Positions 24,340 to 32,655 of a stretch of DNA of 64,000 bases are shown here, piece after piece (position 1 is the first letter of the stretch; every line of letters starts with the position of its first letter). The notes beneath the pieces were generated by a model. That model was not told where the DNA came from. It saw only the letters and a list, made by a program, of their open reading frames with translations, and did not search any database. Origin of the DNA: Fidelibacterota bacterium (GTDB taxonomy: Bacteria; Fidelibacterota; Fidelibacteria; Fidelibacterales; Fidelibacteraceae); contig JAOZRH010000001.1 of NCBI GenBank assembly GCA_029931905.1, positions 19,031 to 83,030 of the forward strand, written 5' to 3'. Made by a program: the position numbers and the translations under genes.

Positions 24340-27300
24340 ATGGCAGATAAAAAAGATAAAACAGAAGGTCCATCACCAGAACAATTAATGCCAAGTGGAA
24401 TGGACGAATTAAATCGTCAAGTTCCTGTTACAGCAGATAATTTCAAAAAAATGAATGCATCCTTTGAAAATAATTTAAAGGGTGTTAATAATCTTGGTAA
24501 AAGTTTCGATACGTTAGGTGAAAAAATTCTCAGTGCAATTGGTGGGAATGATAGACGTGATCGTAATCGAAATGCTGGTAGTCAATCTGGATCAGACCCA
24601 TTTTAGAGAGATACCAAACGTCCAGAGCCATCATCATCACAACAAACATCCCAAAATCGGTTATATAGAGATCAAGTAAAAACTGATTATAAAACTGATG
24701 GCATTCCACGAGTACAACAAGCACCTGAGCCACATCAGCGTACATTTGCAACTTTACAAGAAAGATATTCTACTGCACGTGGAACAACAGGAAAACCATT
24801 ACAACCACATTTAGGTGGTGCTGTTGGTCAAAAGTTAGGCAATGACATGAGTAAGAACCTTCTTCAAATGGGTCATATGATATCACCAATGTCATTTATG
24901 CAATATTCATTAATGTTTGGTGCAGGTTTCCCATTACAGATGAAAATGGCTGAAACAATTACCAAACCAGTTACAGAAGTTGCAGAAAAATATGAAACAG
25001 GAAGAACATTTGCTGGTGGTTTTACTGGTATTGGTGATGCAACTAAAGGATTTTCTCAACAATTAACACAATCACCATTTAATATGTATGAAAGTATGTA
25101 TCAGTCTAAGATTTTGTTGACATCTGCTTTAGGTGGTGAGAGACAATCTAATAAAGCAATTGATACTGCACTTAACATGGCGCGGGAATATCCTGTTAAA
25201 ACAGAACAAGTTTTATCAAGTTTGTCACGTCTTGCAGTATATCCACAAACTAAACCATATCTTAAGAATGAAGATTTTCAGAAAAAATTAATGGAATCCG
25301 TTTCTGGTCTATCACTTATTGTTCCTGAACAAGGAATGGAAGGTGCTATGTTCTCATTAATTGAAGCAATGTCAGGATCATGGAGATCATTACAAATGAG
25401 ATTTAATGTTTCACCTGAAGTTGTTGAATCCCTTTCTGGTATGAGTAAGGGTGAAATGTCATCTGATCCTAATAAACTTATTGAAGGTTTACATAGATTT
25501 ATTGGTAAATCTGTTGGTTTAGATGTTCTTGAAAAACAAAAATATACATTCTCAAAACAAGTAGATAACTTTGGTGATTCATTACAAATGATGACCAGAA
25601 ATGTTTTTGAACAAACTGGATTATATAAAACAATTACATCTGGCGCTACTGCATTTCAAACAGGATTTAGTTCACTTGCAGAAAATAAAACATTTTTAAA
25701 TTTTATTAGTAAAATAACTCAACCATTTCAAGAACGAACAGATGGTGCAATGGCAAAGTTTGCTGGCATTTCTACTGGTCTATATAAACAATCTCCATTA
25801 AGTCAAGTAACAAAAATAATGGAAGAAAATTTTGAAGGAATGTCATATGAAGAAATTGGAGATAAGTTTTCTATTTTAATAGATGATATGGGTAGTATTT
25901 GGCGTGATACTAATCAAAGCATAAATACGATTATTAATAGTGCATTTGGGAAGACTTTAGGTGATATTGGTGGTGATATAGGTGCAGTTGTTGGATCTAA
26001 CTTTCAAGGCATGGCAATGGCAGTAATGAAAGGATTTGGTGCCACTATGCTTGAGAATCCAATGGATATAGTTGGTACTATAGCAACACTGGCACTTCCT
26101 GTAATGGGAATTCTTGGTGGAGCACAATTAGGAATTGGGCTAATGCAAAATTTCTTTTCAGGTGAAACATTAGGAAGACGATTTATGAAATTAACTGATA
26201 AAGCATTTGGAACTCATAAATTTAGAACAGCATCTAATATGATAGGTGATTTGTCTAATAATGTTGGTGGCATGACTGCGAAATCTAATAGAAGTGATCC
26301 TATATTAAATAATTTACTATATAACAAAATAGATGAAGATGCATATGGTGGAAAATTTAAAAATAAAGACACACAGGCAGTATTAAATAGAATTGCAGAT
26401 ATTGGTGATGAAAATAGAAAAATATTAGCTACTGCAATTGATCCAACTATAAATGCTACACATTCAAAAATGAAATCAAGTACAACTGGATTATTTGAAC
26501 ATGATGCAATTGGTGGTAGAACTCCTATACCATTAAAAAGCAATCAAGTAAAACAATTTAATGCTGCAGTTGATAGATTTACAGTATCTGCACTTGGGCT
26601 TACAGAACCATCTGATATTAATGCTAAATATAAATCACTTGATGACGTTCCAATGGCATCTTTTAAGAAATCTGAGTTGTGGCGTGGTATGACTAAAGAG
26701 GGATCAGAGTTAGGCAATATGCTTAGTTTGGGTGATAAAGGATCTGAGGCAAGAGTAAGAAAATTCATTGAAACAGAAATTTATGATCAAGCTCGAACAT
26801 ATGCACAAGCATCATATGCAGTAGGATTTGATTCCGATATACCACAATATATGGATGGAAAAGGTCAAGCATATGATCAACGTATTGCCAATAATGAATT
26901 TGGTCAAATTGTAGAAGATATTAGAAAACCAAGTAATGCGAAGTTTGCAACAGAAGCTATATTGGGTAATGTTAAAGAAGTAAATATTAATGCAAAACAA
27001 ATTGATTTATTAGGTGATATTATTGGAGATAAAGCTGGTGTTAGAACTGGTAGTATATCACCTCCAATAATGAATGATAAAATTGGTGCATATATAACAA
27101 AGCAAAAAAAATTAGGCAAATTGTCATTAAGTGAACGAAGCGATATTAAAATGGCTGCAATGGAATATAATGATGCTGTTAATAAAGCTGATTATGTTGT
27201 AGGATCTAAATCATATAATGCAATTTCTAATTCAAAGTTTGACTATGGTAACATGGGTGATTCTCTAAAAAGTTTGGAAAAAAATGATAATATTAGAAAG

Positions 27301-30300: not shown

Positions 30301-32655
30301 ATATTAACAAATTCAACAAATACAACATCAGAAGTAGTTGAAGGAAAACTTAGTCAGTCTCTTGAAAAAACCAGTAAATTATTTCAAGTGGTTGCAACTG
30401 CAGGTAATGAACTTAGTAGAAATGATTTTAGAAATAGATTAACAGAACAAACCTTGGCATCTAAAAATGCAATAGCCGACTTAAAAACGTCTGGTATAGT
30501 TAAAAGAGCGAGTGCAGAAAAGAAATTTGAAGAACTTCGTGAACAAGGTGTTGATTTTAAAGCGATTAGTGAAAGTAAAGAAGTTAATGTGCCAATAAAT
30601 TCAATATCAGATTTGATGATTAATGATGAAAATGGTAGATCTATATTATCCAGAATTGGTAATTTAGATCGTTCTGTAGATTCAGAAGGTAATAGTATAA
30701 ATAAATATGGATTAACTGAAAAAACATTTAAACTATTTAATTCGGCGGGGGAGGATTATACGGGTTCTCAAGTTGATATAGCAGATGCAAGCCAGAAATC
30801 ATTTAATCTGGCATCTCAGTTAGGACAAGCTGCTGGTGCACTCACTGTTGGTGGTAGTCCATTTTATAGCATGGCAACTAAATTTGCAAATATGCATTAG
30901 CCAGCAAAACAGAAAATGGTTAATATTACTGCAAATGAACTGATCCATTTTACTAAGAAAATTGATGGTGCAAAAAACAGAAAAGAAAAGATATTTTATA
31001 CAAATGCAGCAGCAAAATCTTTACAAACATTTGAGCAGCAAAATGGATCATTGTCATATCTACAGATTAAATTGGGTAAACAGATTGGTGTAGAACGTGC
31101 AGAAACAATGATTAATGATGTTGCTATGTCATTAGCAAATGAAGCAACTAATAAAAGTAATGAACGTTTAGCTAACATTGATGATGCTGCTAAACAATTT
31201 ACTACTCAAGAGGCAGCAGTTGCCACTGGTGGTGTTCAAGGTGATAACACAATTCCCAGTGTAGAAAAAGTTAGTGTTGCAGCATATGATGAAGGTATGA
31301 TCAAAGCTGCAAAGGCTAAAGATACACTCGAAGGCAAAAAGGAAGCATTAGGGATTCCTAAAGAAACAGTTAAAGCATTGGTAAATAAAGAAACCGGCGT
31401 TAATACATATCTTGATAAAGATAATAAGGTGGTTGGTACATCTGATAAAGCAAAAGGTAAAGCTGACGTAGGTGTTAAAATTACAAATGGTGCCGAAATT
31501 GGACAGCAAATTGCAGCAGCAATGGTTGCAGCATTTGGTTCTATAACAAAAGGTAATGGTAGTTCTGGTAGTGGTGAAAATACCTATGATAAATCTACTG
31601 ATGTCGCAGATAAAATAAAAAAAGCAGTAGCCACAAAAGATGCCATGCCAGCATCTTCCGATAAAACATCAGATGTAGTAGATGCCAAGGAAGCCATTCC
31701 CATTGAACAACTCGTAAATGAAGTTATAAATGGTAAAAGTACTGCACAGAAAGATACTAAAAAAGATGCCAGTGTACAAAAGGATGTCCAAACTGCACAG
31801 AAGAATGTTGATACTACAAAAGTTGATCCCGATACAGGAAAACCAATCAAATGGTTTGGTACTAATGTATCTGGTAAAGAGAATGATCTATGGTCAACGA
31901 TGGATATTCCTAAGAATGAAGATGGTTCAATTGATTATAGTAGCATGGCAGCAAACCAGACGTATACAGGTGTTGATGGTTCAGATATTACTGTGAAAAA
32001 TAAAGATAATATTGTATCTGCGGGTGATGGTGGTTGGAATAATTTATTTGAAGGTGATGGTAAATTAGGAATGAAAGTGACCGACGAAGTTGATCCTGAT
32101 ACAAGAAAACCAATCAAATGGTTTGGTACTAATGTATCTGGTAAAGAGAATGATCTATGGTCAACTTTCAATATTCCTAAGAAGGAAGATGGTTCAATTG
32201 ATTATGATAACATACCACCATTGTCACAATATACAGGCGTTGATGGTGACATTATTACAATGGCAAATCAACAAGATGTTGATACTAAGGGTAATAATAT
32301 TGGAGAGCCATATTTATTCTTTTCAAATGCATACACTACAACTAATGATCATAGTAATATGCCAACATTGGGCAGTTTTCCTAATGTTCGACAGATTAGT
32401 CAAGCAAGGGTGTCAACCACAGTGGCACCGGCTGTTCCAATTTCAGAAAATCCTGTACTTGGTAGAGATAATATACAAGTAGATGAACCACCATTTGATC
32501 AAGTTACCAATCCATCAAATGTAAATGATGGAATTTCTGAATTGAATCAAGGTCAACGTGATACTCAGTTTGCAGAAGTACATGGAACATTTACACCAGT
32601 AAATCCATTAATAACAGATAATTATCCTATCAAGGACGGATTGATCTCACAATAA
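24340..32655 (+). CDS. probable tail tape measure protein, 2771 aa, 7 in-frame TAG
   Basis: Track ORFs 24340, 24847, 27502, 28477, 29419 and 30916 share one frame and are joined only by TAG. TAA at 32653-32655. It has long helical, Ala/Gly/Ser/Lys-rich composition and a TMP-core-like segment (...LNMAREYPVKTEQVLSSLSRL...QGMEGAMFSLIEAMSGS...). It also has Gly-rich hydrophobic stretches (GGAILGAVRGARGVGAV, GLVLGLTGGTGALPLALGAAALGSGGAALG). Confidence 0.6.
31822..32262 (+). repeat. internal tandem duplication (two ~58-aa units, 267-nt period) within the tape-measure-like gene
   Basis: VDPDTGKPIKWFGTNVSGKENDLWSTMDIPKNEDGSIDY... (31822-31995) matches VDPDTRKPIKWFGTNVSGKENDLWSTFNIPKKEDGSIDY... (32089-32262). 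A run of about 59 nt is identical between the copies. Confidence 0.9.

What the first reader, a model, noticed from the sequence alone, without database searches (positions are those of the whole stretch)
24340..32655. Exceptionally long tape-measure-like protein (2771 aa)
Six track ORFs merge into an 8.3-kb gene. It has a basic, low-complexity N-terminus, a segment resembling tape-measure core regions, long predicted helical regions, and Gly/Ala-rich hydrophobic stretches typical of tape measure proteins. If the usual scaling of roughly 0.15 nm of tail per residue applied, the tail would be about 400 nm long, at the extreme end of known phages. Alternatively, it could be an ejected internal or cargo protein.
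Basis: partly seen in the sequence, partly recalled or inferred. Interest (0 to 1): 0.65.

Follow-up and report, generated by a model that had tools for sequence, protein, structure and literature searches.

The report
Giant tape-measure gene in recoded phage
An 8.3-kb phage gene with seven in-frame TAG codons encodes a 2,771-residue protein whose conserved core is distantly related to tail tape-measure proteins, which is an ordinary kind of gene; the unexpected result is that this phage lineage seems to read TAG as tryptophan, not glutamine as assumed.

Summary
Window 24340-32655 (+) is one reading frame of 2,771 sense codons. Its seven in-frame stops are all TAG and it ends in TAA. Five related contigs, two of them 233-276 kb jumbo-phage contigs, keep it as a single gene of 2,079-2,546 aa.

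The protein itself hits nothing in Pfam, PHROGs, PDB or GenBank phages. A profile of its conserved core (aa ~150-620) finds 291 mostly giant proteins. Their consensus matches Pfam TMP_3 and about 20 PHROG tape-measure families. A profile-profile comparison with tape-measure proteins (TMPs) of three isolated phages gives 96.6% probability (E 6e-10); reversed and shuffled controls give ≤0.6%. Gly/Ala-rich membrane-like segments are conserved.

The TMP reading is therefore supported (confidence ~0.7). No tube, sheath or chaperone gene could be recognised nearby, so tail type and length remain unproven. "Extreme end of known phages" is overstated: TMPs of 3,149-5,002 aa are published.

The table-15 translation is probably wrong. 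In alignments across five genomes, with supporting protein-level evidence from 14 further database homologues, TAG interchanges with TGG (Trp) and almost never aligns with Gln. I found no paper describing TAG→Trp in phages. No suppressor tRNA was found.

The parts
24340..32655 (+). Whole gene: 2,771 sense codons plus TAA, read through seven TAG codons. Candidate tail tape-measure protein.
   Evidence: single-ORF homologues
24330..24339 (+). GGTAAATTAA directly before the ATG. The same GG-containing motif precedes genes at 4856, 15963 and 32671, so it is probably a ribosome-binding or late-gene start context.
24604..24606 (+). In-frame TAG no. 1 (codon 89). The other six start at 27481, 28456, 29245, 29254, 29344 and 30898 (codons 1048, 1373, 1636, 1639, 1669, 2187). 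Most likely read as Trp.
   Evidence: amino-acid assignment
24340..24789 (+). N-terminal variable region (aa 1-150). It is rich in Arg, Ser, Gln and Pro and poorly conserved.
24790..26199 (+). Conserved core (aa 151-620), 40-84% identical among six homologues. Predicted all-helical, at low confidence.
25012..25599 (+). TMP_3-like tape-measure domain (about aa 225-420), with the signature IVPEQGMEGAMFSLIEAMSGSWRSLQMRF.
26068..26124 (+). Hydrophobic, membrane-like segment 1 (aa 577-595). A segment at this position is present in all six homologues.
27691..27885 (+). Gly/Ala-rich hydrophobic cluster 2 (aa 1118-1182).
   Evidence: composition
28255..28377 (+). Gly/Ala-rich hydrophobic cluster 3 (aa 1306-1346, glycine-zipper-like). 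A segment at this position is present in all six homologues.
28390..31749 (+). Long, fast-evolving central part (aa ~1351-2470). Proline is 1-3%, identity to homologues is 0-35%, and there is a lineage-specific insertion at about aa 1650-1800. This is the presumed ruler segment.
31822..32349 (+). Two tandem 89-aa repeats (aa 2495-2583 and 2584-2670), found only in this copy of the protein. They lie in an acidic, Pro-richer C-terminal extension with no match in Pfam or PDB.
15963..24278 (+). Conserved upstream neighbours (2,175 aa and 594 aa), both rich in TAG. Function unknown.
32671..33261 (+). Conserved downstream neighbour (196 aa) with 4 TAG codons. Its conserved Trp columns alternate between TGG and TAG across genomes.

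Best explanation
The gene encodes the tail tape-measure protein (TMP) of an uncharacterised, AT-rich jumbo phage; related contigs are 233-276 kb. Shown: it is one continuous, conserved gene, and its conserved N-proximal core (aa ~225-420 within aa 151-620) is homologous to the TMP_3-type core domain of genuine tape-measure proteins. Inferred from what is known of that family: the protein would be threaded through the tail tube during assembly, with its length setting the tail length. At infection it would be expelled first, and the conserved Gly/Ala-rich hydrophobic segments (aa 577-595, 1118-1182, 1306-1346) would insert into the cell envelope to help form the DNA conduit. Only the proline-poor, fast-evolving central part is likely to act as the ruler. 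The N-terminal disordered region, the globular core and the copy-specific C-terminal repeat domain probably do not, so the tail is likely long (hundreds of nm) but shorter than the naive 416 nm. The seven TAG codons are translated, most probably as Trp. That ties synthesis of the protein to whatever supplies UAG decoding late in infection.
For: - Continuity and conservation: all seven in-frame stops are TAG, and homologues are single ORFs of 2,079-2,546 aa in the same gene neighbourhood wherever flanks were fetched.
- Remote homology: a profile of the core finds 291 proteins at E≤1e-3, mostly 700-3,600 aa, among 1.84 billion representatives.
- The consensus of those hits matches Pfam PF20155 TMP_3 over its full length (1-191 of 192, E 1.6e-9). 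It also matches about 20 PHROG families, nearly all annotated 'tail length tape measure protein'.
- tblastn of the consensus hits annotated TMPs in 26 phage records. Three were inspected and lie in canonical modules: sheath-tube-chaperone-TMP-baseplate, or terminator-tube-chaperone-TMP.
- Direct test: hhalign of the six-sequence close family against those three TMPs gives probability 96.6%, E 6e-10, over 279 columns. Reversed or column-shuffled templates give ≤0.6%.
- No other protein of the window hits the core model.
- Family-typical traits: it is the largest gene of the window, the core is helical, hydrophobic Gly/Ala-rich segments are conserved in position, the rest of the protein diverges quickly, and length varies widely among relatives.
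- It lies in a block of TAG-rich genes, one of which carries an Ig-like domain, a mark of structural genes.
Against: - The protein itself gives no Pfam, PHROG, PDB or GenBank-phage hit. Even the family consensus scores 38.2 bits, below Pfam's gathering threshold of 41.
- No tube, sheath, tail chaperone or baseplate gene was recognisable in the 64 kb.
- The candidate 394-aa neighbour gave a usable model (pTM 0.67) but no fold match.
- Gene order is atypical for a TMP: the upstream genes are 2,175 and 594 aa, and a convergent block lies downstream.
- Two standard-code relatives of the protein sit next to head genes (T4-type portal, ClpP-like protease, gp23-type capsid) rather than tail genes.
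- One Rhizobium phage homologue is annotated 'putative internal virion protein'.
- The AlphaFold model of the core has low confidence (pLDDT 39).
- Only 64 kb of a genome of about 270 kb was examined.
Confidence: 0.72

Rival explanations
1. It is an ejected internal-virion or cargo protein that shares ancestry with the tape-measure core but does not set tail length. It would be stored in the capsid or a short tail and injected to build a trans-envelope channel, like T7 gp14-16 or the cargo proteins of crAss-like phages.
For: No long-tail genes could be recognised in the window. Standard-code relatives of the protein lie beside portal, prohead-protease and capsid genes. One homologue in a Rhizobium phage is annotated 'putative internal virion protein'. 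Hydrophobic membrane-like segments fit an envelope-spanning ejected protein equally well.
Against: All interpretable homologues in isolated phages are TMPs of contractile or long non-contractile tails in canonical modules. Nearly all functionally annotated PHROG matches are tape-measure or tail families. No similarity to known internal-virion or cargo proteins was found in PHROGs, Pfam or PDB. Wide length variation among close relatives (2,079-2,771 aa) is typical of rulers.
Confidence: 0.17
2. The table-15 reading is right: TAG encodes glutamine here, as in Lak and crAss-like phages, and the association with aromatic residues is an alignment or mutational artefact.
For: TAG→Gln is the only amber reassignment reported for phages that differ from their host's code (Borges et al. 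preprint). In E. coli extracts, 28 of 29 tested phage tRNA-CUA inserted Gln. Public databases translate these genes with Gln.
Against: Among residues aligned opposite 209 TAG codons in seven gene families from five genomes, Gln is almost absent. Trp is enriched 59-fold, and Trp's commonest partner is TAG (29%), ahead of TGG (19%). The log-likelihood of the partner profile is -1384 for Trp, -1618 for Tyr and -1765 for Phe, with Gln outside the best eight. TGG alone gives 0.64% Trp in the window, but TGG+TAG gives a normal 1.42%. In 14 further database homologues of the 196-aa protein, the reference Trp columns hold almost only 'Q' (that is, TAG) or W. The core-domain column that is TAG in four genomes is W here and F/W/Y in 87 of 120 distant relatives.
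Confidence: 0.05
3. The TAG codons are genuine stops: the region is six separate genes or a decaying pseudogene.
For: Standard-code ORF calling gives six ORFs.
Against: All seven interruptions are TAG and none is TAA or TGA. No gene in the window ends in TAG. The frame is preserved across TAG codons in five other genomes with different TAG positions. Conservation runs straight across the junctions.
Confidence: 0.01

Closest known systems
TMP_3-type tail tape-measure proteins (Pfam PF20155), e.g. Clostridium phage phiCT453A gp46 (667 aa), Thermus phage MN1 MN1_950 (1,615 aa), Acinetobacter phage Bhz9 CDS0018 (856 aa)
   Same: The core domain is homologous (hhalign 96.6%, E 6e-10), including the motif PxQG(l/m)EGAxFxLxEAxSG-aromatic-xSxxxRF. 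The domain sits in the N-proximal part of a long, largely helical protein that also has hydrophobic segments.
   Different: The protein is 2-4 times longer and lies below Pfam and PHROG thresholds on its own. It is not flanked by recognisable sheath, tube, chaperone or baseplate genes. It contains TAG sense codons.
Giant tape-measure proteins: Thermus phage P23-45 TMP (5,002 aa, 800-nm tail; bioRxiv 10.1101/2022.12.01.518664) and the TAG-recoded gut phages of the phAss-1 group (3,149-3,209 aa; PMC10607447)
   Same: Very long TMPs. In phAss-1 the gene is also interrupted by in-frame TAG in a gut phage.
   Different: tblastn against GenBank phages found no sequence match. No RNA-polymerase-like DxDxD motif is present. 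phAss-1 TAG was recoded as Gln by its authors, whereas here TAG behaves as Trp.
Ejected internal virion or cargo proteins of short-tailed phages (T7 gp14-16, cargo proteins of crAss-like phages)
   Same: Large, partly hydrophobic proteins expelled before the DNA to bridge the cell envelope. This comparison rests on my own knowledge of those systems.
   Different: No sequence or profile similarity was detected. The homology found is to tape measures.
Known amber reassignments: code 15 (TAG→Gln) in Lak and crAss-like phages; code 32 (TAG→Trp) in Balanophoraceae plastids
   Same: TAG is a sense codon concentrated in presumed late or structural genes and absent from some genes, such as the helicase. 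This matches the recoded-phage pattern of Borges et al.. The inferred amino acid matches the plastid code 32; that assignment is my own knowledge, and the only paper my phrase search returned for UAG→Trp concerns holoparasitic-plant organelles.
   Different: The amino acid is not Gln. TAG→Trp has, as far as my searches reach, not been described for a phage.

Membership tests
Tail tape-measure protein (functional class) | Core domain homologous to an established TMP family | tested here: met
   hhalign of the close family against three TMPs of isolated phages: 96.6%, E 6e-10, 279 columns; controls ≤0.6%. The consensus of remote homologues matches TMP_3 over its full length, E 1.6e-9, and about 20 PHROG TMP families.
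Pfam PF20155 (TMP_3), curated membership | Score at or above the gathering threshold (41 bits) | tested here: not met
   The target gives no TMP_3 hit at E≤1. The family consensus scores 38.2 and 24.7 bits. Only 4 of 39 remote homologues hit TMP_3 at E≤1e-3.
Tail tape-measure protein (functional class) | Gene lies in a tail module, after tube and chaperone genes and before baseplate or distal-tail genes | tested here: inconclusive
   Neighbours are conserved but unidentifiable: PHROGs, Pfam, PDB profiles, and the fold search of the 394-aa neighbour.
Tail tape-measure protein (functional class) | Tail assembly chaperone pair with a programmed frameshift immediately upstream | not tested
   The upstream genes are 2,175 and 594 aa, which is not the usual pattern. 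A conserved 154-aa protein on the opposite strand (34334-34798) was not examined for a frameshift.
Tail tape-measure protein (functional class) | Long, mostly alpha-helical protein with hydrophobic or glycine-rich segments | tested here: inconclusive
   Hydrophobic Gly/Ala-rich segments are conserved in six homologues. The core is all-helical but at pLDDT 39. The rest of the protein was not modelled; only low proline content and a crude periodicity scan are available.
Tail tape-measure protein (functional class) | Protein length proportional to tail length; protein present inside the tail tube | not testable with these tools
   Needs electron microscopy, cryo-EM or virion proteomics.
Genetic code 15 phages (TAG→Gln) | In-frame TAG aligns with Gln in homologues | tested here: not met
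   Gln is nearly absent opposite TAG. Trp is enriched 59-fold. Likelihood ranks Trp > Tyr > Phe, with Gln outside the best eight.
TAG→Trp reassignment (as in code 32) | TAG and TGG interchange at conserved Trp columns, and Trp content is normal only if TAG is counted | tested here: met
   0.64% rising to 1.42%; reference Trp columns hold mostly Q (i.e. TAG) or W, with a few Y/F, in 14 further homologues.
TAG→Trp reassignment (as in code 32) | Suppressor tRNA with CUA anticodon and Trp identity, or a dedicated TrpRS or release-factor change | tested here: inconclusive
   No tRNA in the window or in six related loci and no Rfam hit. Only about a quarter of the genome could be reached.
Internal virion / cargo proteins | Similarity to known ejection or cargo protein families | tested here: not met
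   No such family appears among Pfam, PHROG or PDB matches of the protein, its family profile or the family consensus.

The most novel reading that the evidence does not exclude
This jumbo-phage lineage, which includes at least five genomes examined at the DNA level and a more distant 24.5%-GC relative (L014), decodes UAG as tryptophan. That would be a phage genetic code different from the two so far described for phages that differ from their host's code (UAG→Gln, UGA→Trp). The giant tape-measure gene and most other presumed late genes would then depend on a Trp-type amber suppressor. Current databases mistranslate every one of these proteins with Gln.
Probability: 0.8. Interest if true: 0.85.

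Novelty: new member of a known kind. Interest (0 to 1): 0.45.

Why it matters
As a tape measure, the gene gives a first functional anchor in a 64-kb stretch where 29 of the 31 large ORFs examined match nothing. It predicts a long-tailed jumbo phage whose tail length could be checked against the 2,079-2,771-aa range in relatives.

The more consequential point is the code. If UAG means Trp here, gene callers and databases that apply table 15 put the wrong residue at about 0.8% of positions, mostly at conserved aromatic sites. That degrades homology searches and structure prediction for the whole lineage. It would also show that phage amber reassignment is not restricted to glutamine. This raises the question of how a CUA-anticodon tRNA is kept Trp-specific, because anticodon bases are major TrpRS identity elements and, from my own knowledge, the classical E. 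coli tRNA-Trp amber suppressor is mischarged with Gln. It would also offer a new natural orthogonal pair for genetic-code engineering.

Tried and rejected
- Direct annotation of the target failed: Pfam and PHROGs, tblastn against 50,697 GenBank phage records, a PDB sequence search with the full-length family profile, and a PDB search with the C-terminal repeat region.
- AlphaFold of the core with four sequences gave pLDDT 39, too poor for a fold search.
- Annotating neighbours to establish the tail type failed. PHROGs on 28 proteins recognised only an intein-containing helicase. Pfam on ten more found nothing, as did PDB profile searches for the 203-, 196- and 154-aa neighbours.
- The idea that the convergent block (394, 203 and 154 aa) is sheath, tube and chaperone was tested on the 394-aa protein. 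The model is acceptable (pTM 0.67), but no match exceeds TM 0.19. The idea is neither supported nor excluded.
- A virion RNA polymerase fusion, as in P23-45 or crAss-like phages, was considered. No DxDxD motif occurs in the target.
- A relationship to Jug jumbo gut phages was considered. Those use the standard code.
- Looking for a suppressor tRNA gave nothing in the window or six loci and no Rfam family.
- Attempts to reach the rest of the genome failed.
- Promoter and terminator scans showed nothing above shuffled expectation.

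
Full report
**The observation.** Under the standard bacterial code the frame at 24340-32655 (+) splits into six ORFs of 88, 878, 318, 256, 493 and 579 aa. The seven interruptions are all TAG (nt 24604, 27481, 28456, 29245, 29254, 29344, 30898). The frame ends in TAA and opens just after a TAA/TGA stop. With only TAA and TGA as stops, the whole 64-kb window resolves into 31 tightly packed large ORFs, 27 of them carrying in-frame TAG. None ends in TAG: there are 27 TAA and 4 TGA terminal stops. The window is about 28% GC. The ATG is preceded by GGTAAATTAA, a motif also seen before several other genes. 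The merged 2,771-codon gene is therefore real.

**Conservation.** A search of 5.8 billion proteins returned only three homologues, of 2,363, 2,128 and 2,079 aa. IMG/VR added two more, 2,450 and 2,546 aa after translating through TAG, on contigs of 232,818 and 276,095 bp. A neighbouring protein of the window is on record on a 271,481-bp contig, so this is a jumbo-phage lineage.

Gene order around the target is the same in all of them. A ~1,290-aa gene lies on the minus strand, followed by genes of ~2,100 aa and ~550 aa, then the target, then a ~180-aa gene, then a convergent block. Identity among the six proteins is 40-84% over aa 151-600 and mostly below 30% elsewhere. There is a lineage-specific insertion near aa 1650-1800 and a C-terminal extension. 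The extension contains two tandem 89-aa repeats (aa 2495-2583 and 2584-2670) found in no other homologue.

**What the protein is.** Nothing is found directly in Pfam (best E 0.08), PHROGs, GenBank phages or PDB sequences. A profile of the conserved core (alignment A2) was searched with HMMER against 1.84 billion representative proteins. It gave 291 hits at E≤1e-3 and 156 at E≤1e-10. Most are 700-3,600 aa long and match profile positions ~70-300, which correspond to target aa ~220-450.

- Few of these proteins are annotatable individually: 4 of 39 hit Pfam TMP_3, and several hit PHROG tape-measure families.
- The consensus of the remote members matches PF20155 TMP_3 end to end (1-191 of 192, E 1.6e-9, 38.2 bits against a gathering threshold of 41). 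It also matches about 20 PHROG families, nearly all called 'tail length tape measure protein'.
- tblastn of that consensus hits 26 phage records at genes annotated as tape measures.
- I inspected three of these. Clostridium phiCT453A has sheath, tube, XkdN chaperone, TMP, then baseplate. Thermus MN1 has a sheath, then a 'tape-measure protein with lysozyme', then baseplate. Acinetobacter Bhz9 has tail terminator, a 'minor tail protein', chaperone, then TMP.
- A direct profile-profile comparison of the six close homologues with those three TMPs gives 96.6% probability, E 6e-10, over 279 columns. It aligns IVPEQGMEGAMFSLIEAMSGSWRSLQMRF with LDPTQGLEGAGFALKEALSGDFMSVRQRF.
- Reversed or column-shuffled templates give ≤0.6%.
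- No other protein of the window hits the core model.

The core is thus a divergent TMP_3-type tape-measure domain.

**Other features.** Hydrophobic Gly/Ala-rich segments occur at aa 577-595, 1118-1182 and 1306-1346. Counterparts lie at similar positions in all six homologues. AlphaFold predicts the core as all-helical, but with pLDDT 39. Proline is 1-3% from aa 621 to 2470 and 6-7% at both ends. There is no DxDxD motif that would suggest a fused RNA polymerase as in P23-45.

**Context.** This is the weak point. PHROGs on 28 other proteins of the window recognised only a helicase with inteins. Precomputed or fresh Pfam scans gave only an Ig-like Cep192_D4/PapD-like domain in the 1,282-aa protein. 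PDB profile searches of three small neighbours found nothing significant.

I used the second structure prediction on the 394-aa protein, which sits in a 314-394-203-154-290 aa block reminiscent of sheath, tube and chaperone. The model is reasonable (pLDDT 69.5, pTM 0.67), but no PDB or BFVD match exceeds TM 0.19. So I could not show that the phage has a long tail.

The five more distant relatives of the protein that I looked up are no clearer. Two standard-code relatives lie next to head genes: a T4-type portal and ClpP-like protease, and a gp23-type capsid and portal. One TAG-recoded relative lies next to an SLT lysin and a terminase. The remaining two lie among replication and nucleotide-metabolism genes.

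**Interpretation.** The best explanation is a tail tape-measure protein, with confidence about 0.7. The main rival is an ejected internal protein that shares the tape-measure core.

At 0.15 nm per residue (established knowledge from lambda gpH studies, not tested here), the whole protein would give 416 nm and the shortest relative 312 nm. However, the N-terminal disordered region, the globular core and the copy-specific C-terminal repeats are unlikely to be ruler.

The protein is also not at the extreme of what is known:
- P23-45 has a 5,002-aa TMP and an 800-nm tail (abstract).
- TAG-recoded gut phages of the phAss-1 group have TMPs of 3,149-3,209 aa.
- Five of the best 150 proteins with this core are longer than 2,771 aa.

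**The unexpected finding: what TAG encodes.** I aligned seven orthologous gene sets from the window and four related contigs at the codon level (209 TAG codons). The residues opposite TAG are TAG 33%, Tyr 15%, Trp 13% and Phe 10%; Gln is almost absent.

- Trp is enriched 59-fold over background.
- The commonest partner of TGG-encoded Trp is TAG (29%), ahead of Trp itself (19%).
- TAG and Trp together are as self-conserved (46-49%) as Tyr (49%) or Phe (45%).
- Whole columns read four TAG plus one W, three TAG plus two W, or two TAG plus three W.
- The likelihood of TAG's partner profile is best for Trp (lnL -1384), against Tyr -1618 and Phe -1765.
- In the window, TGG accounts for only 0.64% of codons and TAG for 0.78%. 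Their sum, 1.42%, is a normal Trp content.
- In the tape-measure core, the window's W in SGSWRS is TAG in the other four genomes and in a more distant 24.5%-GC relative. It is F/W/Y in 87 of 120 distant homologues.
- The 196-aa protein downstream of the target has five invariant Trp columns once TAG is read as Trp.
- In 14 further database homologues, which are stored with Gln at TAG, the reference Trp columns contain mostly 'Q' or 'W', with only a few Y or F.

[quoted passage not shown] A screen of phage tRNA-CUA found Gln for 28 of 29. My full-text searches for TAG/UAG→Trp returned only a paper on holoparasitic-plant organelles and an unrelated one.

I found no tRNA in the window or in six related loci, and I could not reach the rest of the genome. 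The mechanism is therefore unknown. The assignment to Trp rests on comparative evidence only, though that evidence is strong.

**Verdict.** The tape-measure interpretation is supported at the level of homology and remains unproven at the level of function. The claim of exceptional length is overstated. The table-15 translation should be replaced by TAG=Trp for this lineage. As a tape measure this is a new, very divergent member of a known kind. The codon reassignment is the part that deserves follow-up.

Noticed in passing
whole window; best seen at 32671-33261 and in loci L001, L003, L004, L005, L014: In-frame TAG behaves as a synonym of TGG (Trp), not as Gln. Trp is enriched 59-fold opposite TAG. 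TGG+TAG makes 1.42% of codons, against 0.64% for TGG alone. Conserved Trp columns alternate between TGG and TAG across the five genomes examined at codon level, and hold Q (the databases' rendering of TAG) or W in 14 further database homologues. I found no published phage precedent.
   Followed up: yes
window 1639-4791, 33258-34130, 34334-34798, 36669-37613: Four genes contain no TAG at all; the helicase uses 13 TGG. Their neighbours carry up to 14 TAG codons. This may mean these genes are expressed before UAG decoding becomes available, as in the temporal-regulation model proposed for other recoded phages.
   Followed up: partly
window 1639-4791 (+): A 1,050-aa helicase gene (phrog_16, ResIII) is interrupted by intein-like insertions (Pfam Hom_end_hint). 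PHROG hits to ribonucleotide reductase, PhoH, thymidylate synthase and terminase probably reflect shared inteins.
   Followed up: partly
window 24330-24339, 32661-32670, 4846-4855, 15950-15962 and other gene starts: A recurring GGTAAAT(T/A)AA-like motif, or a shorter AGG/GGG motif, lies 8-11 nt before start codons. This may be a Shine-Dalgarno-like signal, which could hint at the host group.
   Followed up: no
window 35471-36655 (-): The conserved 394-aa protein gives a fairly confident AlphaFold model (pLDDT 69.5, pTM 0.67), mostly beta. It has no whole-fold match in PDB or BFVD (best TM 0.19). Only a ~90-residue beta-barrel resembles the N-terminal barrel of F1/V1-ATPase subunits. It may be a new fold.
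   Followed up: partly
window 12042-15890 (-): The 1,282-aa protein (1,290 aa in relatives) carries an Ig-like Cep192_D4/PapD-like domain. It is the only other domain recognised in the structural-looking part of the window.
   Followed up: no
database proteins P0003, P0155, P0153-P0186: Public protein collections store this lineage translated with table 15, so conserved Trp positions appear as Gln (for example the consensus 'IDQID' against the window's 'IDWLD').
   Followed up: partly
window 31822-32349 (+): Two tandem 89-aa repeats (about 60% identical over the first 60 residues or so) at the C-terminus of the target are absent from all five homologues. They are a recent, copy-specific domain gain of unknown function.
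   Followed up: partly
locus L006 (contig of P0021) and locus L014 (contig of P0011): More distant relatives of the tape-measure protein also sit on TAG-recoded contigs, which do not translate under table 11. In L014 the conserved core column is again TAG, so the reassignment may extend beyond the immediate clade.
   Followed up: partly
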